Positions 37,681 through 61,076 of a stretch of DNA of 64,000 bases are shown piece after piece; the first letter of the stretch is position 1; each line of letters begins with the position of its first letter. The stretch is from Hydrolagus affinis. Taxonomy: Eukaryota. The DNA is taken from contig JAAILG010000009.1 in NCBI GenBank assembly GCA_012026655.1, positions 1 to 64,000 of the forward strand. Direction: 5' to 3'. Made by a program: the position numbers and the translations under genes. The notes below the pieces were generated by a model, which was not told the DNA's origin, searched no databases, and saw only the letters and a program-made list of their open reading frames with translations.

Positions 37681-37755
37681 GTATTTCCTTACGCCACAGG
37701 TTTGTAAGCGTGAGATCACACTCGTCTCCTACACATCAGCGATGAAAAATGACTA
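37681..37755 (-). promoter_or_regulatory. Shared cluster upstream motif, copy A
   Basis: Coding strand: gtagtcatttttcatc...TGTGATCTCACGCTTACAAACCTGTGGCGTAAGGAAATAC, about 150 bp before the ATG. Confidence 0.7.
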
Positions 37756-39852
37756 CAGTTAAAATTGAAGCATTATTTTTTGAATAGAAAATAGTGGTGA
37801 TACATTTGACCCTAGGGAGCAATGGGTGAGTAGAAACCTGCGAAAAAAAAAAGAACAGCGTGTAAAAGAAAGTGTTTAGCCCACAATCGCTGTGATGTTC
37901 AGTGGGTCACTTTAATGGAGAGAATTGGAAGTTGAGTTTCACCATTTGCACGTTGTTTTTCTACTTTGGAATTAAGAAAAGGGATCGTCGACACTGTTGG
38001 GCGATTGGCAATTTACTGTTTTTTCAAGGAGTTGGGTGAGAGTTGCAGATAAGCACATAACCTTTGGTGGGAATTGGTTTTGATAGTGTTTCCAATTAAC
38101 AAAAATGACACCCGGAAAATACTCATTCTTCGGATGGTATTGGCAATTGTCAGGATATGGTCAGTCCTATTCGACTTCGATCCAGGCTAGGGTTACTTAT
38201 ACATTAGGTTGAAACGTTGGAAAATTAACTCATCTGAAAAAAAAACAAGGCATAAAAGTTGGGCTAAACTTTGTGCTGATTATTCGATTCTCCCAAGAAT
38301 TTCACCACGCCTATAGTTGAACTCGATTTTCTGAGCTGAACAGTAACATCATTATACATGTCCTATAGTGCGAACACTACTGATTAATTACTCACCCTCC
38401 TCTTCTCGCAAGAAATAATAAGTCCAATTGTAGCATTTCTCCGCAGTCTTAGAATTAAATCAGTGGTATTTAAATAATTGTCCTTTTTTTATTGCCACAG
38501 TTCACATGCCATACCATATGGTTACTGAATCGTTGAGAAACGCAATATAATTTTTTTTTTGTCCTTGATATGATTGAAACAGATGAATAAAACATAACGG
38601 TATTACTAGGGAGGGGAAGTGCTGAAGCGTCATTTTATGGAACCAACATTTGTGTAATGTGAGGGTTTGAGTCTTTTACCAGGACATTTAACATGGGGGA
38701 TTAACATGCTTTATCCCAACCATAAATTTGGAGATTTGGTCAAATGTTGCCATGTTCCCACCAATATTATTGCTAAACTCATTCAGTGACTGAGGCAAAT
38801 ATAACCGTCTCTCCTTGTTGAAGAAGTTCCTATTGCTACCATTCACGTGCATTCAATTTACCAACGTATTTGACAGTAAGAAACGCGCAACGTTCAAGTG
38901 AAGACATGTTAATGTTTAATAGTAAGGAAATAACCATTCAAAGTCTCAGAGAGCAGTGAAGATAGCCTTCTTTTTCATACAATTACTGTATTATTAACGC
39001 ATTTACCTTACATTTACTTTATTTTATTATCTGATTGCCTTGTATAATTAATGTATCTTTCGCGTGTGAAATAATGGTTTGTTTGTGTTTCACGGATATA
39101 GGAGTCGGGAAACTCAGTGTGGAAAAGAAAAGCAGATGAACGGTGATGAAAATACGATAGATTTCCGAATTATGGATGAGAGACAATTCTTGAGGTGAGT
39201 CCAATTTCAAACATACAATAGCAGTTCCTCTCCCATCGCAGTCCTGGCGACCATTTACTTTGTTAAACTGTATTATGCCACACGGAATGGAATATGTTAG
39301 ATCAGAAGACGGTAAAAGTATAACATTGCCTCAGTTAGTTAGTTAGTTAAGCGCAGTATAACTTATACTGATATACAGCCTTGCAATAATCCCTTCTCAA
39401 CTATAGGCTGTTATATAGACTTTATGATAAGATTTTGTGTGTTCCCACAGTGTTCCCATAACTAATAGCCTCACCCACTTTCCTCTCACAAGGACGTTAT
39501 ATGTAGGAGTGGGATTCATTGAATGACTGTAACAAACATTAATTCTGAATTTTATTTAACGAAAACATATTAGAGGTTCCTGATTCACGTTCTAAATTAA
39601 TGTAAAGGTAGATTTTCTGGAATATTTGGAATATTCCAGAATACAAACGGCTTTCTTTCTCTGTCTTTTCGGAAGGTGCGTTTTAACCTGTCCTGGCCAA
39701 AGTTTGCTCAGGAAAGACTTTGTCTGTCTTTCTGTCTCTCTCTGTCTCTCTCTCTCTCTGTCTGTCTCTCAGTCTCTCTCTGTGTTGGGAGCTCAGAGGC
39801 AGGATAGTCCAGGTTCCCCCTTCGAAGGAGCGGTCAAAACCAATCTGGAGTT

Positions 39853-40722
39853 TCAGAACAGTCGTGGGCAACAACAGAGCGGGAAATTTTCAAACGCGCC
39901 CTTGTTTTTTTTCTTCCTAACCCTTTTGGGGTCAGGTTTGCGTTTCCTGGGGGCAGGTTTCGGGCGGGTCCCACGGGTCTGAGCTGTTGGTTTCGAAGCC
40001 ATCTTCCCACCTGTGGGGTACTGCTCTCCAGTGGAGGTGTTGGTCGACTTGCTGGTACCAGTAGACTCCGGTGGACTGGACGCGATGGATAGTTTGCTTG
40101 TGTCGGTGGTGACAAGACGCATGGAGCGGACCGAAGACTTTTTGGAGTCGGTGGTTTCAGTCGGAGTGAAGCTGAGGGAACTCTTCGAGTCCGAGCTGCG
40201 GTCCGTGCTGGACTCGCGTCTCCGGCTCGGCTGTCTGGTGGATTTCATCGACCTCCCTACCGCCTGTAAATTGGTTCTTCTGGGCGCAGGGCGCCTCGGT
40301 TCCCAGGAACGATCGTCGGAGTCGTAGGTCTTGGGTTTGAAGGGTAATTTGAATCTGGGGTCTGACGGCGGAGATCTTCTGGAGGCAGCCCCTCTGGGGT
40401 GGCGACTTGCCTTGGACAGCTCCAGGTTCTGAACCTCGGCCGTCTTCGGCTCCGCTTTACAGGTGGAGTAATCGGCTTCAATCAGCAGCGTGTGCTTCTC
40501 GCACACGGTCAGACTCACGGTTCTCGGGTCCACCTCCTCGGGTAGGCTGAAGGTGTTGGAGAAGCCGTGGTAATTGCGCCTGAGCATGCCATCCTCCTCC
40601 ACCGTCATTTCAACCCGTTCGCCAGACACATTCACCGTACGGTCCTTGATGTTCCCTTTTATATTCTCTGGCAAAATATCCCCCAGGTTTATACGGACGG
40701 AAAACTTCGGGCGAGGCTTCAT
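39853..40722 (-). CDS. Cluster gene B: ACD protein with Ser/Thr/Arg/Lys-rich tail ending PLCCCPRLF
   Basis: FSVRINLGDILPENIKGNIKDRTVNVSGER...HGFSNTFSLPEEVDPRTVSLTV; shared upstream motif; AATAAA (-) at 39551-39556. Confidence 0.8.
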   Translation of the reverse strand: MKPRPKFSVRINLGDILPENIKGNIKDRTVNVSGERVEMTVEEDGMLRRNYHGFSNTFSLPEEVDPRTVSLTVCEKHTLLIEADYSTCKAEPKTAEVQNLELSKASRHPRGAASRRSPPSDPRFKLPFKPKTYDSDDRSWEPRRPAPRRTNLQAVGRSMKSTRQPSRRRESSTDRSSDSKSSLSFTPTETTDSKKSSVRSMRLVTTDTSKLSIASSPPESTGTSKSTNTSTGEQYPTGGKMASKPTAQTRGTRPKPAPRKRKPDPKRVRKKKNKGAFENFPLCCCPRLF

Positions 40723-40867
40723 TTCTACTGAACATTGGATGTATCTTTCCAGAAGTTTTCGCTTTCCACTCCTATTGCTAATATCCAGAGAGGGGTAGGA
40801 TCCATAGCTATCCCATGTTAGCCCGACTTGATGTAGTTCACTGAAGTTGTAATTTTCTGAAAAACGT

Positions 40868-40931
40868 CAGTGCATTTGCTTACGCGGCGGATTTGTGAGC
40901 GTTTGATGCACCTCTATGATGAAAATGACTA
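40868..40931 (-). promoter_or_regulatory. Shared cluster upstream motif, copy B
   Basis: Coding strand: tagtcattttcatc...TCAAACGCTCACAAATCCGCCGCGTAAGCAAATGCACTG. Confidence 0.65.
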
Positions 40932-41937
40932 TATACCGTTAAAGCATCAACATTGGTATAAACGGTGGCACCCAGCGCGTAATGGTTAAAACAATGCGTC
41001 CAAGAAAAATGTTCCAAGGAGTTTGTTACCTGGAGAGATGTTTGTTTTTCCCTCCCACCCTAAATTAAACTCCAATTCATGTCACAACCAGAAGCTTGCA
41101 GTATAAAGCCGATAGTATGGAGGGGGCGCGGGCAGGAAGTGAGCAACTGTAAATGCAAGTGATATGTAGATATATATATATATATATAAAGCGCAACTTC
41201 ACATTAGCTATAGGTGTTGGAACTCAGCAGAAAGGGTTAAAAATGGCGGCGTCTCCTTTTACTGCATGCAATACCTGCGACATGGAATGACTAGCTATTT
41301 CACCCACAAAATACAGTCAATTCACTGAACGGTGTATTCTGTGAAGCAGTTTGAGACGGCTGAACGACATGATAAGGCGTTATATAAAATGTTATATAAA
41401 ATGCAAGGATTATTATTTACTTTTATAAACCCAGTCCTTAATCCAACCATTAATTTTGCCTGAAATTGAACCATATGCGTAATGCAGAATCATTGCATAC
41501 ATATGCGGAGTAAGGCTGTTAAGCTTTCGTTTCTAGTCACATTATGTGGTATGGTGCAAAGGATAATACCATTCATCTGATTCGAAGGTTATATAAACGC
41601 TGAGTGCTTGATGTTAATTCTAAAGTTTCTTCTTCAACCGAGTTATGAAATATATTCACTCTGATTTAGAAGATCGGAATGTATTTTCAATCAGTTCCGA
41701 AAAAAAGTCAATTTCAAAAATGTATGTGAGTTGTACCTTTGTTCCAGTGAGACCCAAGTCAAGTTCTGTTGGGCTGTATGTGTGTGTCAGGCATATATTG
41801 AAAGTGTACTCTTTTCTCAAAGGATCTACACACATTCTCACAGAGGCCGACCCCCCACCCCCACCACCCCCACCCCAACACACTCCATGTGAATTTATGT
41901 TTCTTACATAAGAAAATGCTTATCTAAAAAAGACTGT

Positions 41938-42285
41938 GGAGTTCTGTAGCTCGGTGGTTAGAGCAAGCGGGAGGGTCTGGGTTCCATTCGGTCAGCTCAA
42001 AACACTGGGCAAGTTTCCTTACTCCACACGTCTCTGTTCGCCTAGCAATGGGGAGGAGCCCAGTTGTTAGTCAATTGGTAGATCACTTTTCCGGGGGTAT
42101 TCATTCCAAAAGAATTTGGCCACTCAATCCGAGACTGTTTGTGGGGACTGCTCTTTCACTCACTGTTTCCGAGATGATGCAAGTCGCATTTCCACAAAAT
42201 CCACAATCAACCCTATTTACAATGTGTCTGTGAAGTGCTTTGAAAGTTCCTGACGAGGTGCTATATGAAAAGAAAGGATTATAAT
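41938..42285 (+). mobile_element. tRNA-derived SINE copy
   Basis: gtagctcggtggttagagc head with the shared body and tail; a partial second copy follows at about 42315-42430. Confidence 0.75.
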
Positions 42286-43095: not shown

Positions 43096-43698
43096 CTAGA
43101 CTGACCCACAGCACAGAGGACAACATGGCTTTGGGGCTGGTGATACAGGCTGTAGTTTAACCCAATTGCTATTGGGTTCACAGGCTATCACAGAGGCAGG
43201 TTTGCGCTTATTATCTCGGCTGTCGCCCTTTGACTTGGAACCAGCTCCTCCTCCTTTCTTATTATCCTTCGAGTTCTGCGGGGATAAGTCCCTCACTGAT
43301 TTGCGATTCTCAGTGGGATTTTTGTGAGTTCTCGGCGGCTCCTGAAACTGTGTCTTGGAGCCAGCGTTCTTCCTGTTGGGCGCTCGTCCGGCTGCATACT
43401 TGTCCCCCTGGATGAGGATAGTGTCATCGTTGGGGACGGTCAGGATCAGGGAATCTGGATCCACGTCGTCGGGAAGGTTAAACTCGTTGGAGAAACCGTG
43501 AAAGTTATAGCTGATCTCTCCATTCTTGTTCTTGATCTCATCCACGTGTTGGCCAAACACGTTGACCCGACTGTCCCTGACTGTGGCGTTCACTTTGTGT
43601 GGGGATTTCCCATTGCGCAAATTGATTGCGACATTGTACTTCGGTGGGTGGGCGAAGGAAGCAGAGTGTAGTTTCTCTCGAGACTTTGGTTTTGACAT
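43096..43698 (-). CDS. Cluster gene C: ACD protein with basic tail ending PKPCCPLCCGSV (true start may lie in the N-gap)
   Basis: YNVAINL...VRDSRVNVFGQH...FHGFSNEFNLPDDVDPDSLILTV; frame is open up to the gap at 43745-43844; AATAAA (-) at 42926-42931. Confidence 0.78.
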   Translation of the reverse strand: MSKPKSREKLHSASFAHPPKYNVAINLRNGKSPHKVNATVRDSRVNVFGQHVDEIKNKNGEISYNFHGFSNEFNLPDDVDPDSLILTVPNDDTILIQGDKYAAGRAPNRKNAGSKTQFQEPPRTHKNPTENRKSVRDLSPQNSKDNKKGGGAGSKSKGDSRDNKRKPASVIACEPNSNWVKLQPVSPAPKPCCPLCCGSV

Positions 43699-45928
43699 GT
43701 TTCTCTGTGCCTCTCGGATGCCTAGAGATACAGGTTCCCGGGACNNNNNNNNNNNNNNNNNNNNNNNNNNNNNNNNNNNNNNNNNNNNNNNNNNNNNNNN
43801 NNNNNNNNNNNNNNNNNNNNNNNNNNNNNNNNNNNNNNNNNNNNGTTGGAAGAACAGAAAAATTATTGAGAAAAGTTGGACAGTTTGGGGGAGAAAAAAT
43901 AATGTGGTAAATATATTCACTAAAAAAAAGTTTTCACTTAATTTTAGCAAAATGATAAGTAATTGTACTGAAACTGGGGATGGTTTCACCGCATTGTCTG
44001 CTTCTGTCAGCCGCCCCCAATTTACATTGTTTTGTACTTCATGTTTAAACTTGCAAGAAAGGAGAGCTGTCCTTGTATATATAACACGCTGTTTTCACCC
44101 TTCCGAATGCCTTTAATGATTGGTGGTGATGCAGGGAAACAATTTATTCATGTTTCATGATTCTTTTTGTTTTTCACCATCGTGCTGGCCAAAGACGGCT
44201 GAACTAGTCAAAGTTAGTTTTGCTGTGCAATAATCTTGCAAACGCAAAAGCGTCAACTCAACCACCCTCCCAAGTCCTACGCCCTCCTCATTCGTCCCGC
44301 CAGCTCCACGATAGACAAAATCCAATGTAATAAAAACTCAGTCACTCATACATGTACAAATGCAAGATGTTTATGTGGGTCTGATTGTAACATACGCGAA
44401 TTACTCACTGCCGAGAATCTGGTGGTCGGTCCAATTTCGGAAAATAAGTAGGTGGACTGCTTCCAATCCCTTGAAGAGCACAGTCGCAAAGAAGCAAAGA
44501 AATCTAGTGATGAAAATATTTCTCTATAATTCAGCCCCAATGCAGCATTCCGTTTGCCACGTACTAATGAGTAAATCATTGGTATTTGTAACATCTTATT
44601 CATGTTGCCTTTCCCATTTGTTGTGTCCCTATTGATTCAGTGACATCAGAATGGGTTCATTGTTCTGTTGTGTGACAGGAGTCTGAAATGGTGAAGACTC
44701 ACAAACAAAATGTTGTAGTCATTTGGAGATGATTGCACCTCCATTTTTTAAAAAATACTGCATCAAATTTTCGAATTGAATACAATGGTAAATTAGAATT
44801 GACTAATGACTGAAGTCTGCCACATAGTAATTATGTGTGGTATACCCACTCTGTTTCATGAGAAAGGATAAAATATCTATATTACACATACCTAAGAATT
44901 ATTAAATCAAAAAAGGTTAAAATATCAGCAAGCCCTGTTTATAATAACCATAATAATAATCCTTGCATTTGATATAGTGCCTTATCATATCATTGAGATG
45001 TCCCAAAGAGCTTCACAGAATATTCTGAGTCTGCTTTCGCCACACTATGCAAGTGTTAGCCAGATTAAATAAATCAGATTCTCCTCACTATTAAGTAATT
45101 CCTGTATTTGAGAATATAAATTTGTTTGGAAGTGAGATTGTAATAATAAATAATGATTCCTGCATTTGGTACAGCAGCTTATGTTGGAAAGACGTCTCAA
45201 CGTGCGTCAAAGGATTTACTGTGAAGTGGAGTGACTGTGTATTTGAGGCAAATGTGGCAGGCTAATTGCGCACGAACAACCATGATATAAATGACTATTT
45301 TTTACTTTGAGAATTGTTGGCCAGGACATCTGGAGAAACTCCCTTTTCTTTTCAAATAGCCCAATGTGTTCTTTAACTTCCACCTGAACATGGTAACATC
45401 TCATTTGAAAGAGTGCACAGCCTTTTTTGCTGAGATTTGAATTCTGAATGACTTATTTGAGAATGAATGTGAGGAAACAAATCACTTATGTGTTTTTAAA
45501 AACACACTTTCAACCAAAAAGCCCTATCAGTTTTTGTCCTCTGTCTACTTTACTGTAAGTGTTTCAAAGGCTGATTGATATTTATCAGAAATAATTTCAG
45601 GAGCTGTTACTAATGTTATTTGTGATATATAATTATGGATACATGTGTAAATTAACTTGGAGAACTGAAACAAATATCAGACCTGCATTTTATTAAACGT
45701 CATTGACAACTGTTGTTTTCACTTCCAAATGAAATTGGTTTTACTGCACCAGCGGTTCCAGAAACGTTCTTTTTCTTCCCCATCATATATTAAATACCAC
45801 TCACGTCCATGTTGTACTTAATATTAGAAAGGTCAGAGTTTGCCTTCACCTTGTACTTAACTCTTGTTTAGGCTGAAGAGATTTGTATTGTAGAAGTTGC
45901 AAAATAACCTGTTGGGTTTCAAATAAGT

Positions 45929-48900
45929 TTAGTGTAACTCAGAGCAGCGGCACATCTTGGTATTTGATGACACAGGTGTTCTTTTCTTGTTGCAAATGCA
46001 TTGCAGCAGAAATCGTCCCTGGGAGCAATCATTTTCTTCATTGTCAGTGTCACGTTCCTCTGCCATAGATTCACTGGCTTGGTTGGAGGTTTTTAGAAAA
46101 GTCATTGGGCGTTTTGAGTTGGATATGGATTTACACTTGCAATGGATTCTTTGCGGGATGTTTGGTCGCCCTCGGCAATGGATTTTTGTATGATTTTGGG
46201 AAGTAGTTTCAGGAAGATATTGAGTGTTTTGTCTGGGGGATTTCACAGAAACCTGTGCACCCCCAGGTAGAGATTTCGAGGTAACGTGCACATCTTTAGG
46301 GAGGATTTTTATGAAATCTTGCTTGCTTGGAGTCTGTTGCTGCCTTACATTTTCTACATCTTGAGATTGGATTGGGAGCTGCGCATGTTGGGAAGATAAA
46401 TCCCCAGAAACTCGTCTGCTGTGAGAAGTGGACTGTGGGGCATCTTCCCCATCTTCATAGGCAGTTTCCGAGCGTCCTAGGCTTTGCCTTCCAACTTTTC
46501 TGCCATATTCTGATTCATGCAATCGCATTTCTGGGACATTTTGTCCATTTTGGTTAAGTGATTCCAGAAAACTTTGTCTGCTGTGGGGTTGATAGACTGG
46601 GGCATAACCCTTGCTTACAGCTCTGTTTTCTAAGAGATTTTGGCTTTGTCTGCTGATTTTCCTACCATTTTCTTGTACTTGAGGGTTCATTTCCAGGTTA
46701 CCTTGCATATGCTGAACTCCTCGTGTGCTTTCGGATGAAGTCAGTAGGTCCTGATTTTTATAAACAGTAAGTACCTGTATATCCAAAGGATCTTGACTTG
46801 ATCTGATGAGATTTCTGCCATGTTTTGATGCTTGGGATTGCATTGCTTGGACCTCTTGCAAATTTGGGATGTTCGATTGATGAGTACCTCGTTTGCTGTG
46901 GGGCAGAGAACCTAGGTCATGTTCCCCAGTTAAAGATTTTGGTTGTGGTGGATCTTGCCTTTTGAAATTCTTGCCAATTTCCTGGACAGGCAATTGCAAT
47001 TCTTGGGCAATTCGCCCGTTTTGATCATTTACTTCCCGTCTGCTTGGCATTGGAGTTGTGAGGGCAGAATCCTTATAAACAGTATGTGTCTCCAAGATAT
47101 CTTGGCTTTGTCTGCGGAGATTTCTGTTGTTTTTTGGTTGCATTTCTTGCTCAGATTGGAAGTATGATGCCCGAGTATTTTGTCTGCTGTGTTTCGTCTG
47201 CAGAGAAACTAGATCATATTCCGCAGGTATAGTTTTAGCTGGTATTGAAATTTGGTTTTGTCTGCTGCCATTTCCGCCATTTTCTGGGAACTGGGGATGT
47301 GTTGCTAGGATATCTTGGATGGATATTTCCTCAGATATTTGTTTACTGTGGGATTGATATACTAGGGCATATTTCTTACCCAAATTATTAGTTTGGAAAG
47401 GACCTTGGCTTTGTCTAAGTGCATTTAATCCAGTTTGTGATACTTCTTGTTTGATTTCTGAAATACTTTCACAGTATTTGAAAGGAAATTCTTGGGAAAC
47501 CCATCTACTGGGGGGTTCACTTACAAAGTCAAATTCCCAATTGATAGGACAGGATTCTGCAAAATCTTCTTTTAGATCTTGGCCTTGCCTTCTGACTTCT
47601 CTGCTGCTTTGTGGGGTTTGGGTTTCTGATAGATCTTGCTGATATTGATTGGAAAATACCTGAGAAACTGGCCTGCTTTGGGAAGAGGATTTTCTGGAGT
47701 GCTGCTTATCTTCTGTATTAGTGTGTACAGAATCTTGGCTTTTTCTGTGAGCTTTCCTTGCATTTTGTGAGATTTGGGATTGGGTTCCTGAAATAACTTT
47801 TCCAACTTTAGAAGCAGATTCCTGAGAAATTTGCCTGCTTTGCAAAGAAGGCTTTCGGGCATAATGCTTATTTTCAGAGAACATTTGCATCGGATCTTGA
47901 CTGTTTTGTTTTGGGACTTTACTATCATTTGGTGGGTTTTCTGATTGAGCTTCCGGCCGATCCTGCTGATATTGGAAAGAACTTTCATGGGAATTGTGTC
48001 GGCTTTGCAATTTCGGGGTAGATTGCTTATGTTTAGAGTTGGATTTTGGAAGATCTTGGCCATCTTGGCTGATAACACTCTTGACATATTGTGGGGATTG
48101 GGAGTAAGCTTCTGGAAGATCTTGCTTGGATTGGGAGGGACCATGCATGGCAGTTTGTCTGTCTTGAAAATCTCTCAGATGTGTTTTTAGCAGTACTTGA
48201 CAGTTTTGGAGATGAAAGTTTTTGGCATGTTGTGGATCTTTGCTAACTAATGCTGAGTCATAGGAACACAGGAACAGAGGAATATTAGAAATTAAATATT
48301 GCCCATATTGGGTTGTATATTCAGATAGACTTGGTTCAACTTGAGGATGGTACTCTGGTTTAAGTTCCTTGTGTCTAGAGTGGGTTTCCAACTGATTTGG
48401 GCTGTGACTGTTTCTAGAATGTTGTGGGATTTCGCTGTGGGTTTCTGAGAAATCTTGGTCATATTGGGAATGATATTCCTGGGAACCTCGTATGCTATGG
48501 TGATCAGACTTTAGAGCATATCGTTCATCAATAAATTGGTTCCCTGTGATATCCTGACTGTAGAGTTTAACAAAATATTGTGGGTCTTGGGATTCTAAGT
48601 CTTGGTGTCCATATCCAGAATATAATTTCCGAGGAATTTGCCTGCTATGGGGATGGACTCTTGGAGCATATTGTTTATCTTCAGTGTGAATTCCTATGAA
48701 ATTTTGGCTGTTTCTCTGAACATCTCCATATTGTGGGTCTTGGCTTTCTGGGAGATCATGCCCATTTTGAGTGGATAATTCCTGGGAACCTTCATGTTTA
48801 TTTTGAGTCTTATTTTGATTTTCCTCTGAGGAACGATTTGGAAGATAATTCTGTTGCTGGTGAGTGGATGACAAGTTCTCTTTGTGCTCTTCAAAAGAGC

Positions 48901-51900
48901 TTGGCTCCATGTAAATAGGCAGGTCCTGATTTTTAGGCTCAGGACTACCTGGCAGCGATTCAATGTCAGGTTTTGAAATTTTGGATTCTTTTGGAGTCAC
49001 TGGAAGAGCAGATTTTGCGATCACATTACCACTTTCAGATGGAGATTCTTTGGGTCGAAGTTGTATTGTTTCCTTACTTTCCCCATGGATGATATTCTTG
49101 GATAGTTTATTTTGAGGTGAAGGACCATTCTGTTGTTTCTCATTAACTAGGCTTTCCTCTGAGGAAAGATCTGAAAGATTGTCTTGTGGCTTATCACTGG
49201 GCTGAAAGTTTTCATTGTATTCCTCAAAGGGGGTTGGCGTCATGGAAATAGGCAGGTCTCGTTTTTCAGGCTCAGGGCTGCTTGATGGGGACTGACTTTC
49301 AGAGCTTGAATTTGAGGATAATTCAGGGCTTAATGGAAGAGGTCTTGTTCGTAGGCCATCGTTCCCTAGTGAAGATTTTGCAGATCCTGGTATTTCACTG
49401 TCTTTCCCATTGAAAACAATCTTGGAAAATGTGGGTTCCTTTGTGGGGGGTTGAATTTCCTTTTGTTTATGGAGATCTGAGGTTTCCTCTGAAGAAAGGT
49501 TTAGAATATTGCCTTGTTGCTCATCAGTTAGTGACAACTTGTCAATATGTTCTTCAGACAAATTTGGCTCCATGGAAACTGGCAGATTTTGAGGACCTGG
49601 GCCTTCCTCCAAAGACAGATTTGTTTGGTTGTTTTGTTGATCATTGAAGTTTTCATCATGTCCCTCAAAGGAATGTAACTCTATGGAAGTAGGTAGGTCC
49701 TGGTTTGGGGGCGTGGGGCTTCCTGGTGAGGATTCAGTACCATGGTTTAAAGCTTGTGATACTTTAGGCATCAAGGAAGATGATTTTTTACCAATGCTAT
49801 CACTTTCTGTTGAAGAATTTGAAGGTTTGAATTGTGATGTTTCTTTGCTTTTCTTGTTGAAAGGGTTCTTAGCCAGTTTGGGTTTCTTTTTGGACGAGGG
49901 AATTTTGTTTTGCTTGCTGAGATCTGAGCCTTCATCTGAGGAAGGACTTGAATGGTTGTTTTGTTCATCTTCAGTGGGTGGTAAGGTTTCGTCATGTTTC
50001 TTAAAAGAACTTGGCACCATGGAAATAGGTTGGTCCTGTGTTTCAGGCTCTGGGATACTTCTATGTGATTCAGTGTTATGGTTTGAATCTTGGGACCCTT
50101 TACCAGTCAAGGGATGAAGTATAGATCTCAGCTCTTCATTTTCAAGTGCAGATTTAGCTTTTGTAGTTTCTTTGCCTTTCCCATTGAAGATATTCTTGGA
50201 ACCCGTGGAGCTTTTATGGAGTGAGGAAATTTTCTTTTGCACATCAAGTACTGGGCCTTCCTCTTCATCTGCTGAAAGATTTGGAACATTGTCTTGTTGC
50301 TCGCTTTTCGGTTCCATGTTTTCAGCAGGTTCCTCAAAAGCATTTGGTTCCATGGAATCAAGCGGGTCCTGGTTTGGTGGCTCAGGGCTTCCTGGTGAGG
50401 ATTCAGTATCATGGTATAAAACTTGGAATACTTCAGAAGTCAACGAAGAAGATTGTGTGCCAAAGTTTTCACTTTTTGTTGAAGATTTTGCAGATGTTGT
50501 GCTGCTTTTCCTGTTGAAGATGTGCTTAGCCAGTTTGGGTTTCTTTCGAGATGAGAAAATTTTCTTTTGCTTGCTGAGATCTGAGCTTTTCTCTGAGGAA
50601 AGACTTGGATGGTTCTTTTGTTTGGTGGGTAGCAAGTTTTCATCATGTTCCTCAAAAGAACTTGGCTCCACAGAAATAGGGAGGTTCTGTGTTTCAGACT
50701 CTTGGATATTTTTATGGGATACAGTGTCTTGGTTTGAATCTATGGAATCTTTACCAGTCAAGGGATAAAGTGTAGATCTCAGCTCTTCATTCTCAAGTGA
50801 AAAGTTTGCAGACTTGACTTGTGTAGTTTCTTTGTCTTTCCTCTTGAAGATACTGTTGGAATCCATGGAGCCTTTTTGGAGTGATGGAACATTCTTTTGC
50901 TTGTCAAGTACTGGGCCTTTCTCTTCCTCTGTTGAAAGATTTGGAAGATTGTCTTGCTGCTCACTTTTGGGTTGCATGTTTTCAGCAGGTTCCTCAACAG
51001 CATTTGGTTCCATGGAAATAGGCAGGTCCTGGTTTGGGGTCTCTGGGATTCCTGGTGAGGATTCAGTACCATCGTTTAAAACTTGGAATGCATTAGCAGT
51101 GAGGGAAGATGATTTTGTGCTCATGCTATCTCTCTCTTTTGAAGATTTTGCCGGTTCGAATTGTGATTCTTTGCTTTTCTTGTTGGGGAGGATCTTAGCC
51201 AGTTTGGGTTTCTTTTGGGATGATGGAATTTTCTTTTGCTTGTCGAGATTTGAGCCTTTCTCTGAAGAATGGTCCTGAATTGTTTGTTCTTCCTTGGAAG
51301 ATAATTGGCTAGTTTCCTTTGAAAATGATATTGATCTATGGTTAGCTTTCTTAGCTTCATTTGGCAAATGAACAGCAGGAATTGGATTGATGGCAGTTGG
51401 TATACCTGTCAGGGATCCTGATTTGGAGGAGCTCTTCAGTGCCATGGGATCAGGTTTTATGGGCTCATCTCTCTCAGGTGGAGAGTGTGATTCATATTCG
51501 TCATTCTCCTCAAGAAGTGGTATTGACACTTTATTACCTTCTTCTAGGTCAGTTGGTAAAGCAGAAACATGGCTTGGGGTTGCAGAAACATTTGGAATTC
51601 TGCCTTCCAAGTCAACTATTTCTGGCTGGTCTTCAATGGCCCATTTGGAGGTTACTTTTTGTTGGCTTTCAGTTGTCACTGGTTGATGTACTGAGGGTTT
51701 TTCCGTAAGTGAATGCAGGGAAATATTAGTAGCTTCAGGCAACTGGTTTTGTTCCTGGTTGGTGGAAATAAAGTGTTCATTCATGGTAGTAGAGACACCA
51801 TGATCCATATCTGGTTGGTTGGTCATATTGTTTGTTATTTGTTTGTCAGTTGTTGCTGTGCTCAGGTGTTTATATCGAGTAGCTGTGACTGTGACAGTAT

Positions 51901-52177
51901 GACTACTAGTAACAATAAGGTTCAGAGTATCTGGATCTGTGTCTTCAGGGAGATTGAATTTGCTGTAAAACCCATGAAAGACATTTCTGGTCATTCCATT
52001 TTCTTCCTGAAGATTTACTGATTGATCTCCAAAGACATTTACTCTTCTTCCATTGATTGTTGAATTCACTTTATTCGCAGAAATATGTCCAAGATTTAAA
52101 CAGATAGAAAAATCTTGCAACTTTGTTTCATTGCTTCTTCTTTGCTTTGTATTATCAAACAGATCTTTTGGATCCAT
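45929..52177 (-). CDS. Cluster gene D: 2082-aa single ORF with N-terminal ACD and a very long repeat-rich S/Q/E/K/P tail
   Basis: 6.2-kb uninterrupted ORF with ccATGG start; FSICLNLGHISANKVNSTINGRRVNVFGDQ...FHGFYSKFNLPEDTDPDTLNLIV; internal repeats; AATAAA (-) at 45689-45694. Confidence 0.85.
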   Translation of the reverse strand: MDPKDLFDNTKQRRSNETKLQDFSICLNLGHISANKVNSTINGRRVNVFGDQSVNLQEENGMTRNVFHGFYSKFNLPEDTDPDTLNLIVTSSHTVTVTATRYKHLSTATTDKQITNNMTNQPDMDHGVSTTMNEHFISTNQEQNQLPEATNISLHSLTEKPSVHQPVTTESQQKVTSKWAIEDQPEIVDLEGRIPNVSATPSHVSALPTDLEEGNKVSIPLLEENDEYESHSPPERDEPIKPDPMALKSSSKSGSLTGIPTAINPIPAVHLPNEAKKANHRSISFSKETSQLSSKEEQTIQDHSSEKGSNLDKQKKIPSSQKKPKLAKILPNKKSKESQFEPAKSSKERDSMSTKSSSLTANAFQVLNDGTESSPGIPETPNQDLPISMEPNAVEEPAENMQPKSEQQDNLPNLSTEEEKGPVLDKQKNVPSLQKGSMDSNSIFKRKDKETTQVKSANFSLENEELRSTLYPLTGKDSIDSNQDTVSHKNIQESETQNLPISVEPSSFEEHDENLLPTKQKNHPSLSSEKSSDLSKQKKIFSSRKKPKLAKHIFNRKSSTTSAKSSTKSENFGTQSSSLTSEVFQVLYHDTESSPGSPEPPNQDPLDSMEPNAFEEPAENMEPKSEQQDNVPNLSADEEEGPVLDVQKKISSLHKSSTGSKNIFNGKGKETTKAKSALENEELRSILHPLTGKGSQDSNHNTESHRSIPEPETQDQPISMVPSSFKKHDETLPPTEDEQNNHSSPSSDEGSDLSKQNKIPSSKKKPKLAKNPFNKKSKETSQFKPSNSSTESDSIGKKSSSLMPKVSQALNHGTESSPGSPTPPNQDLPTSIELHSFEGHDENFNDQQNNQTNLSLEEGPGPQNLPVSMEPNLSEEHIDKLSLTDEQQGNILNLSSEETSDLHKQKEIQPPTKEPTFSKIVFNGKDSEIPGSAKSSLGNDGLRTRPLPLSPELSSNSSSESQSPSSSPEPEKRDLPISMTPTPFEEYNENFQPSDKPQDNLSDLSSEESLVNEKQQNGPSPQNKLSKNIIHGESKETIQLRPKESPSESGNVIAKSALPVTPKESKISKPDIESLPGSPEPKNQDLPIYMEPSSFEEHKENLSSTHQQQNYLPNRSSEENQNKTQNKHEGSQELSTQNGHDLPESQDPQYGDVQRNSQNFIGIHTEDKQYAPRVHPHSRQIPRKLYSGYGHQDLESQDPQYFVKLYSQDITGNQFIDERYALKSDHHSIRGSQEYHSQYDQDFSETHSEIPQHSRNSHSPNQLETHSRHKELKPEYHPQVEPSLSEYTTQYGQYLISNIPLFLCSYDSALVSKDPQHAKNFHLQNCQVLLKTHLRDFQDRQTAMHGPSQSKQDLPEAYSQSPQYVKSVISQDGQDLPKSNSKHKQSTPKLQSRHNSHESSFQYQQDRPEAQSENPPNDSKVPKQNSQDPMQMFSENKHYARKPSLQSRQISQESASKVGKVISGTQSQISQNARKAHRKSQDSVHTNTEDKQHSRKSSSQSRPVSQVFSNQYQQDLSETQTPQSSREVRRQGQDLKEDFAESCPINWEFDFVSEPPSRWVSQEFPFKYCESISEIKQEVSQTGLNALRQSQGPFQTNNLGKKYALVYQSHSKQISEEISIQDILATHPQFPENGGNGSRQNQISIPAKTIPAEYDLVSLQTKHSRQNTRASYFQSEQEMQPKNNRNLRRQSQDILETHTVYKDSALTTPMPSRREVNDQNGRIAQELQLPVQEIGKNFKRQDPPQPKSLTGEHDLGSLPHSKRGTHQSNIPNLQEVQAMQSQASKHGRNLIRSSQDPLDIQVLTVYKNQDLLTSSESTRGVQHMQGNLEMNPQVQENGRKISRQSQNLLENRAVSKGYAPVYQPHSRQSFLESLNQNGQNVPEMRLHESEYGRKVGRQSLGRSETAYEDGEDAPQSTSHSRRVSGDLSSQHAQLPIQSQDVENVRQQQTPSKQDFIKILPKDVHVTSKSLPGGAQVSVKSPRQNTQYLPETTSQNHTKIHCRGRPNIPQRIHCKCKSISNSKRPMTFLKTSNQASESMAEERDTDNEENDCSQGRFLLQCICNKKRTPVSSNTKMCRCSELH
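48830..51280 (-). repeat. Coding tandem repeat in gene D, about 330-bp units paired into about 660-bp higher-order units
   Basis: cttagccagtttgggtttcttt (KKPKLAK) at about 51195, 50525 and 49868; QDLPISMEP-like motif recurs about every 330 bp. Confidence 0.85.
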
Positions 52178-52245: not shown

Positions 52246-52296
52246 AAGTGCTTGCTTGCATCTCAGATTTGTAGGCAAATTATTTACTGCTAAAAT
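52246..52296 (-). promoter_or_regulatory. Shared cluster upstream motif, degenerate copy D
   Basis: Coding strand: gtcattt...TGCCTACAAATCTGAGATGCAAGCAAGCAC, same position relative to the ATG, with the CpGs lost. Confidence 0.4.
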
Positions 52297-54382: not shown

Positions 54383-54445
54383 CTTTCATCACAGTGGCGA
54401 GGTAAGGCGTGGGCCGAGAGACCTGTGGCGTAAGCAAAGACACTG
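54383..54445 (+). promoter_or_regulatory. Shared cluster upstream motif, copy E
   Basis: ctttcatcac...ACCTGTGGCGTAAGCAAAGACACTG, about 70 bp before the ATG. Confidence 0.65.
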
Positions 54446-54513
54446 TGGCGTTTGCATATATGCTGTCTCGCTTTCACAAAGTTATGAATCTGTGAATTTT
54501 GCAAAGCAAATCA

Positions 54514-55029
54514 ATGGATCCCCTGGGTTCCGGACCACAACCAGATAACAGGACTGGCCCCAGCAATCCCAAAAAGTTTTCCGTCTTCGTAAACCTTGGG
54601 AATGTCGCTCCTGACCAAGTCGTGGTGAAAATCAAGGACAGGACAATGACTGTCTCTGGGGAACATATGGAGAAGGTGCGGGATACCAGTGGGGTGGCGA
54701 AATATACTTTCCACGGTTTTTCCAACGAGTTTGACCTACCCGCTGGTGTGGAGTTCAATTCCCTGGTCTTCACGGTCCTGGACAACCACGCAATGAAGAT
54801 TGAAGTGGAGGAACCTCAACCTCAGGACCACACTTCAAACACTGAAGTGCAACCGTGTGCCTCCATGTGTTTCACCCCCAAGTCATCCGTCTTTACCCCC
54901 ATGAGGTGTTCCAACCAGAGAAAGGTCCACTTAGCAACAAAACTCAACAGCCAGAAAGGCCACAGTCATCGACAAGAACAGCCTCATCGGGCCAGGTCGA
55001 TCTCCCCCAGCCATTGCTCCAGAAATTAA
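54514..55029 (+). CDS. Cluster gene E: compact ACD protein, the most ODF1-like by eye
   Basis: MDPLGSG...FSVFVNLGNVAPDQVVVKIKDRTMTVSGEH...KYTFHGFSNEFDLPAGVEFNSLVFTV; shared upstream motif; ATTAAA at 55364-55369. Confidence 0.8.
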   Translation: MDPLGSGPQPDNRTGPSNPKKFSVFVNLGNVAPDQVVVKIKDRTMTVSGEHMEKVRDTSGVAKYTFHGFSNEFDLPAGVEFNSLVFTVLDNHAMKIEVEEPQPQDHTSNTEVQPCASMCFTPKSSVFTPMRCSNQRKVHLATKLNSQKGHSHRQEQPHRARSISPSHCSRN

Positions 55030-55804: not shown

Positions 55805-56100
55805 AGGGGGTCCTGTAGCTCAGTGGTTAGAGCACTCGCCTTACAAGCAAGAGACCTAGGTTCGATTCCAGACAGGACAAAACCTTGGGCAAGTTTCTTT
55901 ACTCCATGTGCCTAGTAATAATCCCTCCAAAAAAAATCAATTGTTTATTTCAATCCATGACTGTTTGTGGGACTCTGCTGTGCACAGTTGGCTGCCACAT
56001 TATGCCCACAAATATAATCAATTCATTTTATAGTATATTCTGTGAAATGCTTTGAGACGTCCAGAAGACATGCTATATTAGATGCAAGTTTTATTATCAT
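55805..56100 (+). mobile_element. tRNA-derived SINE copy
   Basis: gtagctcagtggttagagc...ggttcgattcc head, colinear with the copy at 7082-7389. Confidence 0.85.
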
Positions 56101-56979: not shown

Positions 56980-57670
56980 CCTCAGCCGTCCTTTCTCCCC
57001 ACATCAGTGTCATGACCTGCTCTGCCTTCCCCCACCATCACATCATTGTCCGACACCGCTTAGGCTGCTGAAACCCTAATTCACATATTTGTCACCTCAA
57101 GTCCTAAGGAAATGTTGGCCTCGTCAACACTTCTCTCCACAAGCTGCAGATCACACCAGAACTCCATCAACCCAACCATTGGGTCCCCATCCCTCAGAAG
57201 ATAGAACTCAAAATCCTTGTCCTCAATTTCAACGTCCTCCACAGGGTTGTCCCCTCCTACCTCTCTGGTTTGCTAACCCCCTACCAACCAGCTCCCTAAA
57301 TTCAGCAGGCTCCAGCCTACTCCAGGTCTCCTGCCCGACCCGCGCTATCATTGGCGGCCAGCCTTTCAGCCTCTTTCCCCCCACCCCCCACCCAACGATG
57401 TGGAGGAAAAAGCCTCTGGAATCCCACAATCTCTTCGCCTCACTCCCTGCCTCGCCTCCTTCGAGGTACCGCTCAAAATCCTCCTTTTTCCACTGTGCCT
57501 GCAGCTGCCTTCCGACCTCTCTGCCCTCCCTTATCCCAACTCCGCCGTCCCTCCCTCCCTCCCACCCACACTCGGGTCCGGATCCCTGACTATCCAGCAC
57601 CTTGGTGTGTGTCCCCGACATGACATGAAAGGCGTTTTTTACCAATGTCATTTTGTTGTTGTTGTTGTTT
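56980..57670 (+). mobile_element. Degenerate L2-type LINE 3' end
   Basis: gctgctgaaaccctaattcac (AETLIH-like ORF2 end); 3' gcaccttgg...catgaaaggcg...(ttg)n tail seen many times in the window. Confidence 0.6.
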
Positions 57671-57971
57671 TCTTTGCGTGCTGTAACACAGACACACACA
57701 CAGACAGACAGACAACACACTGCCACGCGTGCTCCCGGGAACCAAACCAACCTTGGTTAGAACAAACCTGTTCCTCGCCCATAAGAGTCCAGGTCCCCGC
57801 TCGCTCTCTAATTTCCCACTCTTTCCTCAACTGCAGGGATCTGAATCATCGGAATAATTAAACAAATCATCTGCATAGGTTTCAGTGCCCTATGTTTAAA
57901 AAATAATAATTCTCCGGCCTCCCGGTTGTATCATTTTTCTTGAAGACTAAAAAAAAAATCAACACTGTGAA

Positions 57972-58050
57972 GTTATTTTTTTTCATCACATAGGTGAAAG
58001 ACGATGTGAGTGATCTCACGCTTACACGTTTGTAGCGTAAGCAAATCCTG
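57972..58050 (+). promoter_or_regulatory. Shared cluster upstream motif, copy F
   Basis: tttttcatcac...GTGATCTCACGCTTACACGTTTGTAGCGTAAGCAAATCCTG, about 80 bp before the ATG. Confidence 0.7.
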
Positions 58051-58128
58051 CGTGTTTTGTTATTATCAATAACACCGTTTTCCACGGTCATAGGACAAGA
58101 GTTATGCCGAGTTATGAACCTGTAAATT

Positions 58129-59320
58129 ATGCCAAAGGGATCAGGAGCGGATCCGAATAATTCATCTCAAGAATCGGCGGCTGAAAACAACAAAGCAACA
58201 GGGAAGAGTAACTCACACAAGGGGGAGGATGAGGAGCAGTGTCTCGATGGAACCAGGCAGAAAGCGTTCAGCGCGACTTTAAACGTGGGCGATGTGAACG
58301 TGGATGAGATGACTGTCAAGGTGAAGGGCAGAAAGCTTTGCGTGTCTGGTCAACACGTAGAGAACCGGGCCAACGGGTTCTGCTTTCAAAGCTTCAGCGG
58401 TGAATTTACTCTCCCTCTGGACTTGGACCACGCCACCCTGACCGCCACCATTTCCGACGACCACACCATGAGAATCGAAGGGTACCGAGCCGCGCATATC
58501 AGTTCGAGTTCGCAGACGGACGAGAGGCTCTCGGAGGTGAGAGCGGCGCTGGCGTTGAGGAAACGCGCCGCCTGCACCGCCGGTCGCAAGACACCGGATG
58601 CCAAACGCCAGCAGTTAATCAGCAGGAAAAGCAGCGTCTGCTTTGCTAACCGCGCCTCGAACGCGTCCAACCGCCTGGATTACACCGATCACATTGCCAC
58701 CGAACACATCTGCTCCACCATAGTCACCATCCCCCAGAGGTGCAAGTCCAAAGTGAACTGCAGCATCAGGAGCACAACCTCCAAGGCTTCCTTCTCACTC
58801 AACCCCAGGAACCCCAAGATAGACATGACTCACGCTTTCCCCACCAGCGAGGTCCAACCGATCAATGACATCTCCCGCCAACCCACCAACACCTCACTAC
58901 CCGATACCTGGCTTCAGACCAACACCAGCACCAATAACACCGCCGCCGCCGCCACCGCCGCCGCCACGCCTGTTAGCTCAACCGTTGGTTTGAANNNNNN
59001 NNNNNNNNNNNNNNNNNNNNNNNNNNNNNNNNNNNNNNNNNNNNNNNNNNNNNNNNNNNNNNNNNNNNNNNNNNNNNNNNNNNNNNNNNNNNNNCTCGGT
59101 AAAGCCTCTTGCATGACTGCACTTGCCAGCACCCTGCACCCAATCCAATTTGCATAACAGATCGATAACTACAGAAGAGATCATCACCTCAAATCCACCC
59201 CCCCCTCCCCCCCCCACCCCACCACCACCCTCCTCAGGCACCATCAGTGGGAGAGTCTGTCAAAAAATGACAGAACCAAACTCCCCATTGCGAAGCAATA
59301 AAGAGCTTCTAGGGAAATGA
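58129..59320 (+). CDS. Cluster gene F: ACD protein with S/T/A-rich tail, interrupted by an N-gap; 3' end uncertain (59157 or 59320)
   Basis: FSATLNVGDVNVDEMTVKVKGRKLCVSGQHVE...FQSFSGEFTLPLDLDHATLTATISDDHTMRIEG; gap at 58995-59094; a Pro-rich frame after the gap ends at 59320; AATAAA at 59444-59449. Confidence 0.75.
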
Positions 59321-61003
59321 TACCAATCGCTTGGATGGATTGAAGGAAGCAGTTTCTACGACTTCGAGTCTCGTCTGGCGATGGAGAAGAATGATCTCGC
59401 CTTCAATTGGTCTCCGAGCGCCCAGCCACAATCTGTAGTTATCAATAAATAAAACGCAGATTTGAGCTTGTTGTTGCCATTGTCCAAATTCATTCACACG
59501 TGTAAGATCTTCCAATTGGGTGTTGTAACTAACAAGGAATTCGAATTGATTTACCTCCCACGAATTCAGAGCAGGACATGGCAGGTCAGTGTCACGATTG
59601 TAATAAGCTTGCACTTTGGGGTTTGCTAGGTCACTCAGCTTGTCAATCAAACGATTTATTTGTTTAGCTTTTGGCGATCACTCCAGTTGTTCCTTTGAAA
59701 GCGACCGACTGCAATGGATTCAAGAAGATGGCCCAGAGGAAACTTCTCAATGAAGCAAAGTGTAAGGTGTCACCAATATAATCCTGTACAAATGTTTCAG
59801 TTCGATGCAGAATATAGAGTTGTTGTGGTCCTGGACTAACATAGCAAACCCTGATAGTGCTGATGTAGTGTTTTGGAGAACTCAACACCCTGAATATGTC
59901 ATATCCTCCCAGTACAATCGTTGAAAGGCTTTGCACTGTATGAAGTCTAAGGTTTTTTTTTTTTACTTTGAACCAAATTAGTACATTATTGGCCAAATAC
60001 AAGTAAGAGTTTTGAAAGCGATAACTGCAAACAGGACTGAGCCCTTTTGAGGATTCTCAACAACGGGAGGAAAGCTTCTCCCACTGTCAGTACCACTATT
60101 AGTCCTTAGCTGCTTTTATCACCTGGTACTGAACCACATAACCCCGATGATTTGTCCACTTTAAATTCCATCAACCTATTATTTACCACTTTGGTGTCGA
60201 TATTTATATCAAACAGTCCCTTGCAGCTGACTGCTTTCTTCTAAAAATTTCTCTATAACTGTTTGATGATATTAATATTAATCTTAGGCGTTGTGACTTT
60301 CTTTCCAGATTTACATTCAAGTAGTGATCTGCTAAACACACAATTCACACGATGAAGGTATACACCGAACTGTATGTCCAGAACAGTGGAGTCTCGGAGA
60401 CGAGTACGTTCGAGTCCAGTAGATGTTGGCAAGTCTGGAGGTAAACATGGTAGCGACTACATCCAACAGTATCGATACTATATTTACAGTCTTATCTCAT
60501 TGTAGCATCCGATACTGTATGATCTTAAACAACACCATGCAAACCTCATAGCTGGCACAATTACAAGGACATGATTTGAAAGCCATCTTTGGGTTAGGGT
60601 TAGGGTTGGTGGTATTTCCCAGTTCACATATGGATTTCAGGTCATATACTTTCATGGGTATATTCGAAGTTATATCACCGATATCCGCTCGCCCAATATT
60701 TTGTGGTTAATCGCACATTCCCCGCCAACCCTGGCCGAGCAAATACGTCGGGCCCTTTGTGGCGTAATATCTTTATTGCAACTTTGGAGCATCCCTCTAC
60801 AACAACAACAACAACAACTTCGATTTACATAGCGCCCTCCACGCCGGACGGCGTCTCTCTCAGAGCGCTTCAAATACACTCTGCACACTATACAGTGTCA
60901 GCTCGCCCGCCGCACATCATGTCACTTCCAGTGACACAGTTGCAGGACATAAAAACTCTCTTGTAAAGCAATGCCGCAGGTCACAGAAGTGTACAATGAA
61001 GCC

Positions 61004-61043
61004 TGTGATCTCACGCTTACAAACACGTGGCGTAACAAATACA
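61004..61043 (+). promoter_or_regulatory. Shared cluster upstream motif, copy G
   Basis: TGTGATCTCACGCTTACAAACACGTGGCGTAACAAATAC, almost identical to copy A. Confidence 0.7.
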
Positions 61044-61076
61044 TCTGTCGCATGTGTCTCCGTTGCGATCAACCTG

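What the first reader, a model, noticed from the sequence alone, without database searches (positions are those of the whole stretch)
37681..61043. Conserved upstream motif shared by six cluster genes, better conserved than the proteins
Seen: TGTGATCTCACGCTTACAAAC(CT/AC)GTGGCGTAAG(C/G)AAAT lies about 35-150 bp before the first ATG of A (37681-37720), B (40870-40905), E (54421-54445), F (58010-58046) and G (61004-61043), and degenerately of D (52248-52277), always in the gene's orientation. A TTTCATC element sits just upstream in A, B, E and F. The core has inverted arms GCTTAC-N11-GTAAGC and a TGGCGTAA octamer. Known: TGACGTCA/TTACGTAA-like sites bind bZIP factors, and CREM-tau drives post-meiotic spermatid genes such as Odf1 and protamines through variant CREs. 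I saw no obvious nGAAn heat-shock arrays at these positions. Inference: a common tissue-specific promoter module (or 5'UTR hairpin) rather than heat-shock control.
Basis: partly seen in the sequence, partly recalled or inferred. Interest (0 to 1): 0.82.

Follow-up and report, generated by a model that had tools for sequence, protein, structure and literature searches.

The report
Shared switch before shark chaperone-like genes
A short two-armed DNA signal sits just in front of most genes in an old cluster of small-heat-shock-like genes in a cartilaginous fish, and it probably switches them on together in one cell type, though neither the protein that reads it nor the tissue is known.

Summary
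The motif is real. Leave-one-out profiles recover it before genes A, B, E, F and G (E 3e-10 to 2e-4). D is not significant alone (E 2.9), C's upstream lies in an N gap, and no other full copy exists in the window. A-F are intronless HSP20-domain genes and G keeps a weak remnant. Each of A-F groups with its own relatives elsewhere, and B, C, D and F have named shark or ray orthologues, so the duplications are old. In A, F and G a 17-nt left arm is invariant, the 9-nt right arm matches at 8-9 of 9, and the 5-nt spacer and flanks are at background. This fits selection on an ACGC-N13-GCGT dyad better than gene conversion. 'Better conserved than the proteins' holds clearly only for A/F/G. CREM/bZIP is unsupported (no CRE half-site in 6 of 6 cores; the octamer in 3 of 6), as are an RNA hairpin and heat-shock elements. 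Best reading: a shared proximal-promoter module read by an unidentified paired-site factor. Spermatid expression is only an analogy to ODF1. The right arm weakly resembles an antisense SINE segment.

The parts
37683..37720 (-). Full motif copy before gene A
   Evidence: Leave-one-out E 2.9e-10; 154 nt before the ORF's ATG
40874..40911 (-). Diverged full copy before gene B; keeps ACGC-N13-GCGT and GCGTAAGCAAAT
   Evidence: Leave-one-out E 1.6e-6; dyad count
52250..52287 (-). Decayed copy before gene D; dyad and CpGs lost
   Evidence: Leave-one-out E 2.9, not significant; colinear flanks with A and B only
54402..54439 (+). Copy before gene E; only the right arm (about 54421-54439) is kept, with a second GTGGCGT at 54445
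   Evidence: Leave-one-out E 1.6e-4; left arm 5 of 17 and right arm 9 of 9 against A
58009..58046 (+). Full motif copy before gene F
   Evidence: Leave-one-out E 6.7e-7
61004..61041 (+). Full motif copy before gene G, with a 1-nt deletion after GCGTAA
   Evidence: Leave-one-out E 1.9e-5; 34 of 38 identical to A
37741..37747 (-). Upstream TTTCATC box of A
40918..40924 (-). Upstream TTTCATC box of B
54384..54390 (+). Upstream TTTCATC box of E
57981..57987 (+). Upstream TTTCATC box of F
54479..54498 (+). Downstream block of E, holding an in-frame three-codon upstream ORF (M-N-L-stop, ATG at 54484)
   Evidence: weakly conserved (pairwise p 0.005 to 1 for this region)
58109..58128 (+). Downstream block of F, holding the same in-frame M-N-L-stop (ATG at 58114); related blocks without that ATG lie at about 37631-37645 in A and 61066-61080 in G
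36798..37529 (-). Gene A: HSP20 domain plus proline-rich repeats; a second open frame runs on to 36346
   Evidence: PF00011 E 1.4e-6; frames
39853..40722 (-). Gene B: HSP20 domain plus Ser/Arg-rich tail ending in CCC; start codon uncertain
   Evidence: PF00011 E 5e-9; orthologues align upstream of this ATG
43096..43698 (-). Gene C: HSP20 domain plus a conserved PCC..CCG.V end; no motif visible
   Evidence: PF00011 E 1.1e-4; orthologues
43745..43844 (.). Assembly gap (100 N) 46 nt before C's ATG, where C's copy would be expected
45929..52177 (-). Gene D: HSP20 domain plus a low-complexity tail of about 2000 residues
   Evidence: PF00011 E 0.0027, below Pfam's cut-off; orthologues
54514..55029 (+). 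Gene E: HSP20 domain plus a short tail
   Evidence: PF00011 E 5.4e-10
58129..59157 (+). Gene F: HSP20 domain plus tail, crossed by an N gap at 58995-59094
   Evidence: PF00011 E 2e-6; orthologues
61357..63087 (+). Gene G: 576-codon Arg/Ser/Pro/Cys-rich ORF; probable remnant of the end of the HSP20 domain at 61367-61426
   Evidence: No Pfam family; nhmmer E 0.016, the only non-training hit at E under 5

Best explanation
The motif is a DNA cis-element of the proximal promoter (or the start of the leader) that stood before the ancestral intronless small-heat-shock-like gene. It was copied with each tandem duplication and has been kept by purifying selection (shown: sequence pattern and old paralogy; inferred: selection). 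It has two arms in inverted orientation around a free 5-nt spacer, forming an ACGC-N13-GCGT dyad at fixed spacing. It is therefore most likely read by a dimeric or two-module sequence-specific factor, helped by an upstream TTTCATC box at variable distance (inferred). The factor would switch these TATA-less genes on together in one differentiating cell type, not after heat shock (inferred). Spermatids are the most likely cell type, by analogy with ODF1/HSPB10 and HSPB9; I put that step at about even odds and it is untested. The factor is unidentified and is probably not CREM.
For: Five of six copies are recovered by leave-one-out profiles, with no other full copy in 64 kb. Among A, F and G the left arm matches 17 of 17 in all three pairs and the right arm 8-9 of 9, while the spacer matches 1, 3 and 0 of 5 and the 10-nt flank bins 0-7 of 10. 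Third codon positions in the HSP20 domain are only 24-45% identical, and far-upstream DNA shows no similarity in 13 of 15 pairs. Each of A-F groups with its own relatives from other genomes (4 groups at 99-100, B 91/83, E 90/86). ACGC-N13-GCGT occurs 5 times in the window, 4 of them in motif copies, against 0.125 expected; the spacing was chosen after seeing the copies. CpG observed/expected around 5 of 6 copies is 0.71-1.13 against a median of 0.36 in 202 control tiles, which fits a promoter unmethylated in the germ line. All 7 genes have a poly(A) hexamer 140-448 nt after the stop. No TATA match lies within 350 nt of any of the 7 ATGs.
Against: No transcription start, expression or binding data exist for any of the genes, and the motif could not be checked in another species because no shark DNA was reachable. 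E keeps only one arm and D has lost the dyad, although D has named orthologues in four species. Distance to the start codon varies from 11 to 316 nt. An invariant 17-nt stretch is long for one factor's site. No direct evidence links the family to testis or to ODF1: C-x-P counts are only 0-4 per protein, and no named vertebrate HSPB was in the tree.
Confidence: 0.65

Rival explanations
1. The motif lies in the 5' leader and acts in the mRNA, as a hairpin or a protein-binding site that delays translation, together with the M-N-L-stop upstream ORF of E and F.
For: It lies 11-154 nt before the first ATG and always in the gene's orientation. The inverted arms can pair, and F turns a G-U into an A-U pair in one register. 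E and F share an in-frame three-codon upstream ORF.
Against: Sense-strand folding z-scores are -1.75 to +0.61, antisense folds better in 4 of 6 copies, there is no two-sided change among A, B, F and G, and B and G break pairs. E lacks the left arm. Rfam has no match over the copies at gathering score and only chance-level matches near A and F. The first 8 nt of the invariant left arm lie outside both tested stems.
Confidence: 0.13
2. The A/F/G identity comes from short gene-conversion tracts in this lineage and not from selection on a binding site.
For: High identity (30-34 of 38) is confined to three copies; the other pairs are at 18-26 of 38. The genes are clustered within 27 kb.
Against: Identity collapses in the 5-nt middle and returns in the right arm in all three pairs, and the flanks are at background. 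B keeps the dyad at the same spacing despite 12-13 differences.
Confidence: 0.08
3. The right arm is a variant CRE or PAR-bZIP site read by CREM-tau or a relative.
For: GCGTAA is invariant in 5 of 6 copies and CGTAA is a bZIP-type half-site (recalled). The upstream box reads TGATGAAA on the other strand in B, E and F, like a C/EBP-ATF composite site (recalled).
Against: TGGCGTAA is in 3 of 6 copies, and no TGACG/CGTCA half-site is in any of the 6 cores. Half-sites within 600 bp occur in 3 of 7 genes against 0.37 expected per region. This reading leaves the invariant 17-nt left arm unexplained.
Confidence: 0.07
4. The right arm and adjoining leader descend from an antisense fragment of a tRNA-derived SINE that inserted before the duplications and was exapted. 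This is compatible with the best explanation as an account of origin.
For: Motif profiles give repeated weak hits inside three SINE copies (E 0.5-5). A matches the copy at 10547-10857 at 23 of 26 and scores above all 368 control tiles; E matches the copy at 41943 at 19 of 22, reached by 2 of 368 controls; ungapped 22-mers give A 17, E 18 and F 17 against a control maximum of 15. A's antisense strand beats all 294 control strands with 3 of 3 SINE profiles. With longer tiles A exceeds all 230 controls and G is reached by 1 of 230.
Against: The likeness was noticed after the fact. The whole-SINE profile found nothing in the six promoters. A's E-value is only 0.03-0.07 within the test set, B was not scored by any of the 3 profiles, and D stayed at background. 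The invariant left arm is not colinear with the SINE; it resembles the tRNA head, in the wrong order.
Confidence: 0.15

Closest known systems
Small heat shock proteins (HSP20/alpha-crystallin domain, PF00011)
   Same: Genes A-F carry the domain (5 of 6 above Pfam's cut-off). The best solved relative is the alphaB-crystallin domain (E 7e-13).
   Different: Long, fast-evolving low-complexity tails (up to about 2000 residues), a tandem cluster of intronless genes, no HSE enrichment, and close named relatives only from sharks and rays.
ODF1/HSPB10 and HSPB9 (testis-specific small HSPs)
   Same: Divergent alpha-crystallin domain with added extensions; Cys-rich C-terminal ends in B, C and D. PMC8913478 (passages) describes both as testis-confined and HSPB10 as having a C-X-P-rich domain.
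   Different: No C-X-P repeat domain (0-4 C-x-P per protein); a cluster of seven or more genes, not single genes; kinship and expression untested.
Shared promoter modules of duplicated crystallin and small HSP genes (HSE and Pax6 sites)
   Same: Duplicated genes that retain 5'-flanking elements, as argued in PMC5737492 (passages and one section). Both arms contain a T(C/T)ACGC core that resembles a Pax paired-domain core (recalled; the paper's consensus is in a figure I could not see).
   Different: No HSE arrays; two inverted cores at fixed spacing, not a single site; no matrix test was possible.
CRE/CREM-tau spermatid promoters
   Same: Proximal position, TATA-less, CpG kept.
   Different: No CRE half-site in 6 of 6 cores.
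Exapted SINE fragments acting as cis-elements (recalled class)
   Same: Weak antisense likeness of the right arm to the segment 3' of the SINE's tRNA head.
   Different: Only A clearly exceeds controls, and the best-conserved arm is not colinear with the SINE.

Membership tests
Small heat shock proteins (genes A-F) | Alpha-crystallin/HSP20 domain | tested here: met
   PF00011 in 6 of 6, D at 18.2 bits under the 20.8 cut-off; PDB profile search
Small heat shock proteins (gene G) | Alpha-crystallin/HSP20 domain | tested here: inconclusive
   No Pfam match; 60-nt remnant at E 0.016
Heat-inducible sHSP promoter | Trimeric HSE near the start (consensus from PMC5737492) | tested here: not met
   1 of 7 regions with a one-mismatch site; 0.21 expected per region
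CRE/CREM-tau target promoter | Full or half CRE at the conserved position | tested here: not met
   0 of 6 cores
CRE/CREM-tau target promoter | Binding by CREM and post-meiotic expression | not testable with these tools
   No expression or binding data found
Structured cis-regulatory RNA | Sense-strand fold kept by compensatory changes | tested here: not met
   Sense z no lower than -1.75; no two-sided change among A, B, F, G; no Rfam family
Interspersed repeat unrelated to the genes | Full copies away from the genes | tested here: not met
   None in 64 kb; genome-wide not testable
SINE-derived (exapted) element | Colinear homology to a SINE above chance | tested here: inconclusive
   A above all controls; E, F, G marginal and model-dependent; B and D not
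ODF1/HSPB10-like sperm tail proteins | C-X-P repeat domain | tested here: not met
   0-4 C-x-P per protein; feature from PMC8913478 passages
ODF1/HSPB10-like sperm tail proteins | Grouping with ODF1 in a tree; spermatid expression | not tested
   No named ODF1, HSPB9 or HSP30 sequence came from any search, so the tree holds none
Pax paired-domain site | Match to the full bipartite consensus, and binding | not testable with these tools
   No motif library available; the likeness of the core is recalled only

The most novel reading that the evidence does not exclude
The element is the site of an unrecognised paired-site factor that acts as a master switch for a cartilaginous-fish-specific battery of ODF1-like structural small HSPs in spermatids. 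One arm was seeded by an antisense SINE fragment before the genes duplicated, and the element has been held nearly invariant since before chimaeras and sharks split, even in gene G whose chaperone domain has decayed.
Probability: 0.1. Interest if true: 0.75.

Novelty: new member of a known kind. Interest (0 to 1): 0.46.

Why it matters
Paralogues that keep a shared promoter module are a known phenomenon, so the kind of system is not new. The element and the gene cluster, however, did not turn up in ten literature searches (open-licence papers only). Public databases name the orthologues 'hypothetical', 'uncharacterized' or 'mucin-4-like'. A 17-nt arm identical across paralogues whose third codon positions are near saturation is a ready-made probe for finding the factor and the tissue. 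It could also be used to find further regulated genes genome-wide. If the genes prove spermatid-specific, they would bear on where ODF1-type sperm-tail chaperones came from.

Tried and rejected
Single-protein homologue search with gene E: 8 candidates, none significant. ESM Atlas gave only generic HSP20 clusters at 0.87 or lower. G against the Arg/Cys-rich front of P0001: no significant match, best E 1.3. Rfam: three tRNA-like SINE heads and nothing at the motif; chance hits only near A and F. MYB, CCAAT and TATA patterns (recalled consensus) show no shared position. A copy for gene C: none found by any profile; a lone TTTCATCA at 44515 has no core at the usual distance. Expression: the catshark atlas supplement was too large to read, the catshark testis proteome paper had no readable supplement, and the catshark sperm proteome table lists only UniProt accessions that I could not map; these files may hold the answer on tissue. 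Motif strings in print: 26 papers, 25 listed, none on this subject by title; the two opened were a Smarcad1 shRNA. The hit list at the top is a left-over file from the full-length SINE model and was not used. Likenesses to snRNA-promoter, FOX, RBPJ, DMRT and CTCF sites were considered from memory and dropped, because the key positions are not kept across copies. Prokaryote, phage and plasmid collections were not searched, as they cannot hold the orthologous DNA. Metagenome and viral contigs stayed unchecked.
Full report
Setting. The window is vertebrate DNA. A PX+TPR gene (plus strand, about 11.7-20.7 kb), an acyl-CoA thioesterase gene (minus) and a Neuralized-domain gene (minus, 34572-35477) precede seven long single-exon ORFs, A-G, at 36.8-63.1 kb. 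The names SNX21, ACOT8 and NEURL2 are my reading from those domains and from recalled gene order. A-F carry an HSP20/alpha-crystallin domain (D just under Pfam's cut-off) and G has no Pfam match. A DNA profile of the six domains finds one further hit, at the start of G's ORF (61367-61426, E 0.016), so G is probably a seventh paralogue whose domain has decayed.

Age of the cluster. A profile search of 1.84 billion representatives gave 1276 hits and listed 150. I compared the top 58 with the window proteins and built a tree from 30 family proteins (25 of those hits and 5) plus the six window domains, leaving out the multi-domain and weaker hits. Each of A-F groups with its own set of relatives: A 99/96, C 100/99, D 100/100, F 100/98, B 91/83, E 90/86. 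The relatives of A and E are unnamed. The window proteins are 37-62% identical to named orthologues, against 59-82% among those species. The organism is therefore a cartilaginous fish outside the named sharks, probably a chimaera (inference), and the duplications predate that split. The tree holds no named HSPB, so kinship to ODF1, HSPB9 or HSP30 is untested.

Is the motif there? Yes, at the stated places and in gene orientation. Leave-one-out profiles recover A (2.9e-10), F (6.7e-7), B (1.6e-6), G (1.9e-5) and E (1.6e-4), but not D (2.9). The ungapped matrix agrees for A, B, F and G and fails for D and E. D rests on colinear flanks with A and B only. No seventh full copy exists in the window, and C cannot be judged because 100 N begin 46 nt before its ATG. 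TTTCATC is upstream in 4 of 6, at 39-54 nt. A third, weaker block lies near the start codon and holds an in-frame M-N-L-stop in E and F.

The octamer TGGCGTAA is in 3 of 6 copies and the perfect GCTTAC-N11-GTAAGC arms in 1 of 6. Distances are 11-154 nt to the first ATG and 73-316 nt to the long ORF. Motif identity is 30-34 of 38 among A, F and G but 18-26 of 38 for the other pairs. The domains are 25-38% identical as protein and 47-57% as DNA, yet their best 38-nt stretch is 24-32 of 38 and beats the motif in 8 of 10 pairs. 'Better conserved than the proteins' is thus true for A/F/G and doubtful otherwise.

Anatomy. Among A, F and G the 17-nt left arm (GTGATCTCACGCTTACA) is identical in all three pairs. 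The 5-nt spacer matches at 1, 3 and 0 of 5, the 9-nt right arm at 8-9 of 9, and the flanks at 0-7 of 10 per bin. A, B, F and G share ACGC-N13-GCGT. The window holds 5 such dyads against 0.125 expected, and only one dyad at any other spacing from 8 to 19; the spacing was picked after seeing the copies. Third codon positions are 24-45% identical and far-upstream DNA is unrelated in 13 of 15 pairs. Two conserved arms around a free spacer, between otherwise saturated paralogues, fit purifying selection on two binding surfaces better than one conversion tract. CpG observed/expected is 0.71-1.13 around five copies (top 1-4.5% of 202 tiles, median 0.36) and 0.28 around D.

DNA or RNA? Sense-strand folds have z from -1.75 to +0.61, and the antisense strand folds better in 4 of 6 copies. 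Neither pairing register shows a two-sided change among A, B, F and G. Rfam has nothing at the copies. A DNA element is the better reading, but the start sites are unknown.

Which factor? A trimeric HSE (consensus from PMC5737492) appears in 1 of 7 upstream regions, at chance level, and no TATA match lies within 350 nt of any start. No core holds a CRE half-site, so CREM is unsupported. Both arms contain T(C/T)ACGC, which resembles a Pax paired-domain core, and the upstream box resembles a C/EBP-ATF site on the other strand. Both likenesses are recalled and were not tested against any matrix. The factor is unidentified.

Transposon test. The window holds 35 copies or fragments of a tRNA-headed SINE, and none holds the whole motif. 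The right arm resembles the SINE segment after the tRNA head, in antisense. A matches one copy at 23 of 26 and beats all 368 control tiles; E matches another at 19 of 22, reached by 2 of 368. A beats all 294 control strands with 3 of 3 profiles, but at E 0.03-0.07. E, F and G are marginal and model-dependent, B and D show nothing, and the left arm is not colinear. The full-length profile found nothing in the promoters. A SINE origin for one arm is a lead, not a result.

Tissue. I found no expression data. PMC8913478 (passages) describes HSPB9 and ODF1/HSPB10 as testis-confined divergent small HSPs. These genes resemble them in divergence, added tails and Cys-rich ends, but lack a C-X-P repeat domain. 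From memory, the human region with this gene order is paralogous to the one that holds ODF1; I did not test that. PMC11979771 (passages; supplement unreadable) discusses alpha, beta and gamma crystallins and has no text match for HSP20 or small heat shock. PMC3466250 (passages) describes oligo-capped chimaera testis libraries that could map start sites. PMC13052469 (passages; no supplement) and PMC11083954 (passages; supplement searched twice and part 1 of 6 read) did not help. Six orthologue locus tags occur in 0 papers.

Verdict. The element is real and probably functional: a two-armed proximal cis-element shared by five, perhaps six, genes of an old and apparently undescribed small-HSP-like cluster of cartilaginous fishes. 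The kind of system is known; this instance, its reader and its tissue are not. Confidence in the promoter-module reading is 0.65, and about even odds within it for spermatids. Interest 0.46.

Noticed in passing
window 36798-63087: The seven-gene cluster itself seems undescribed. Other genomes hold further paralogue types not in this window (P0018/P0031, P0041, P0043/P0052 groups), so the cluster may go on past base 64000.
   Followed up: partly
window 43096-43130 (C) and 39853-39885 (B), minus strand: Cys-rich C-terminal ends are conserved in orthologues while the tails are not: PCC..CCG.V in C and F.CCCP in B. C's end looks like a lipid-anchoring signal (recalled).
   Followed up: partly
window 40722-40866, minus strand: B's orthologues align about 20-35 codons upstream of its first in-frame ATG, and three out-of-frame ATGs lie in that stretch. 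The start is uncertain; a small assembly indel is possible.
   Followed up: partly
window 36346-37200, minus strand: Gene A has two long overlapping open frames through its proline-rich repeats; the second runs to 36346. A frameshift or assembly error is likely. A weak motif-like stretch at 36678-36709 lies in that second frame and is not significant.
   Followed up: partly
window 61077-61356: G's ATG at 61077, 36 nt after the motif, opens only 31 codons and is out of frame with the 576-codon ORF; a T run and a GAA repeat lie between.
   Followed up: partly
window 54484-54495 and 58114-58125: Identical in-frame three-codon upstream ORFs (M-N-L-stop) before E and F; A and G have ATT and ATC at the matching place.
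   Followed up: partly
window 60759-60766 and 54445-54451: Extra lone right-arm copies (GTGGCGT) 270 nt upstream of G's motif and just downstream of E's.
   Followed up: no
window 7086-7380, 10547-10857, 55811-56097 and 32 other places: A tRNA-headed SINE family, with copies about 70-80% alike, with and without an internal segment after the head.
   Followed up: partly
window 45929-52177: Gene D's 2082-codon single ORF is much longer than its relatives (273-1110 residues) and contains long internal repeats.
   Followed up: no
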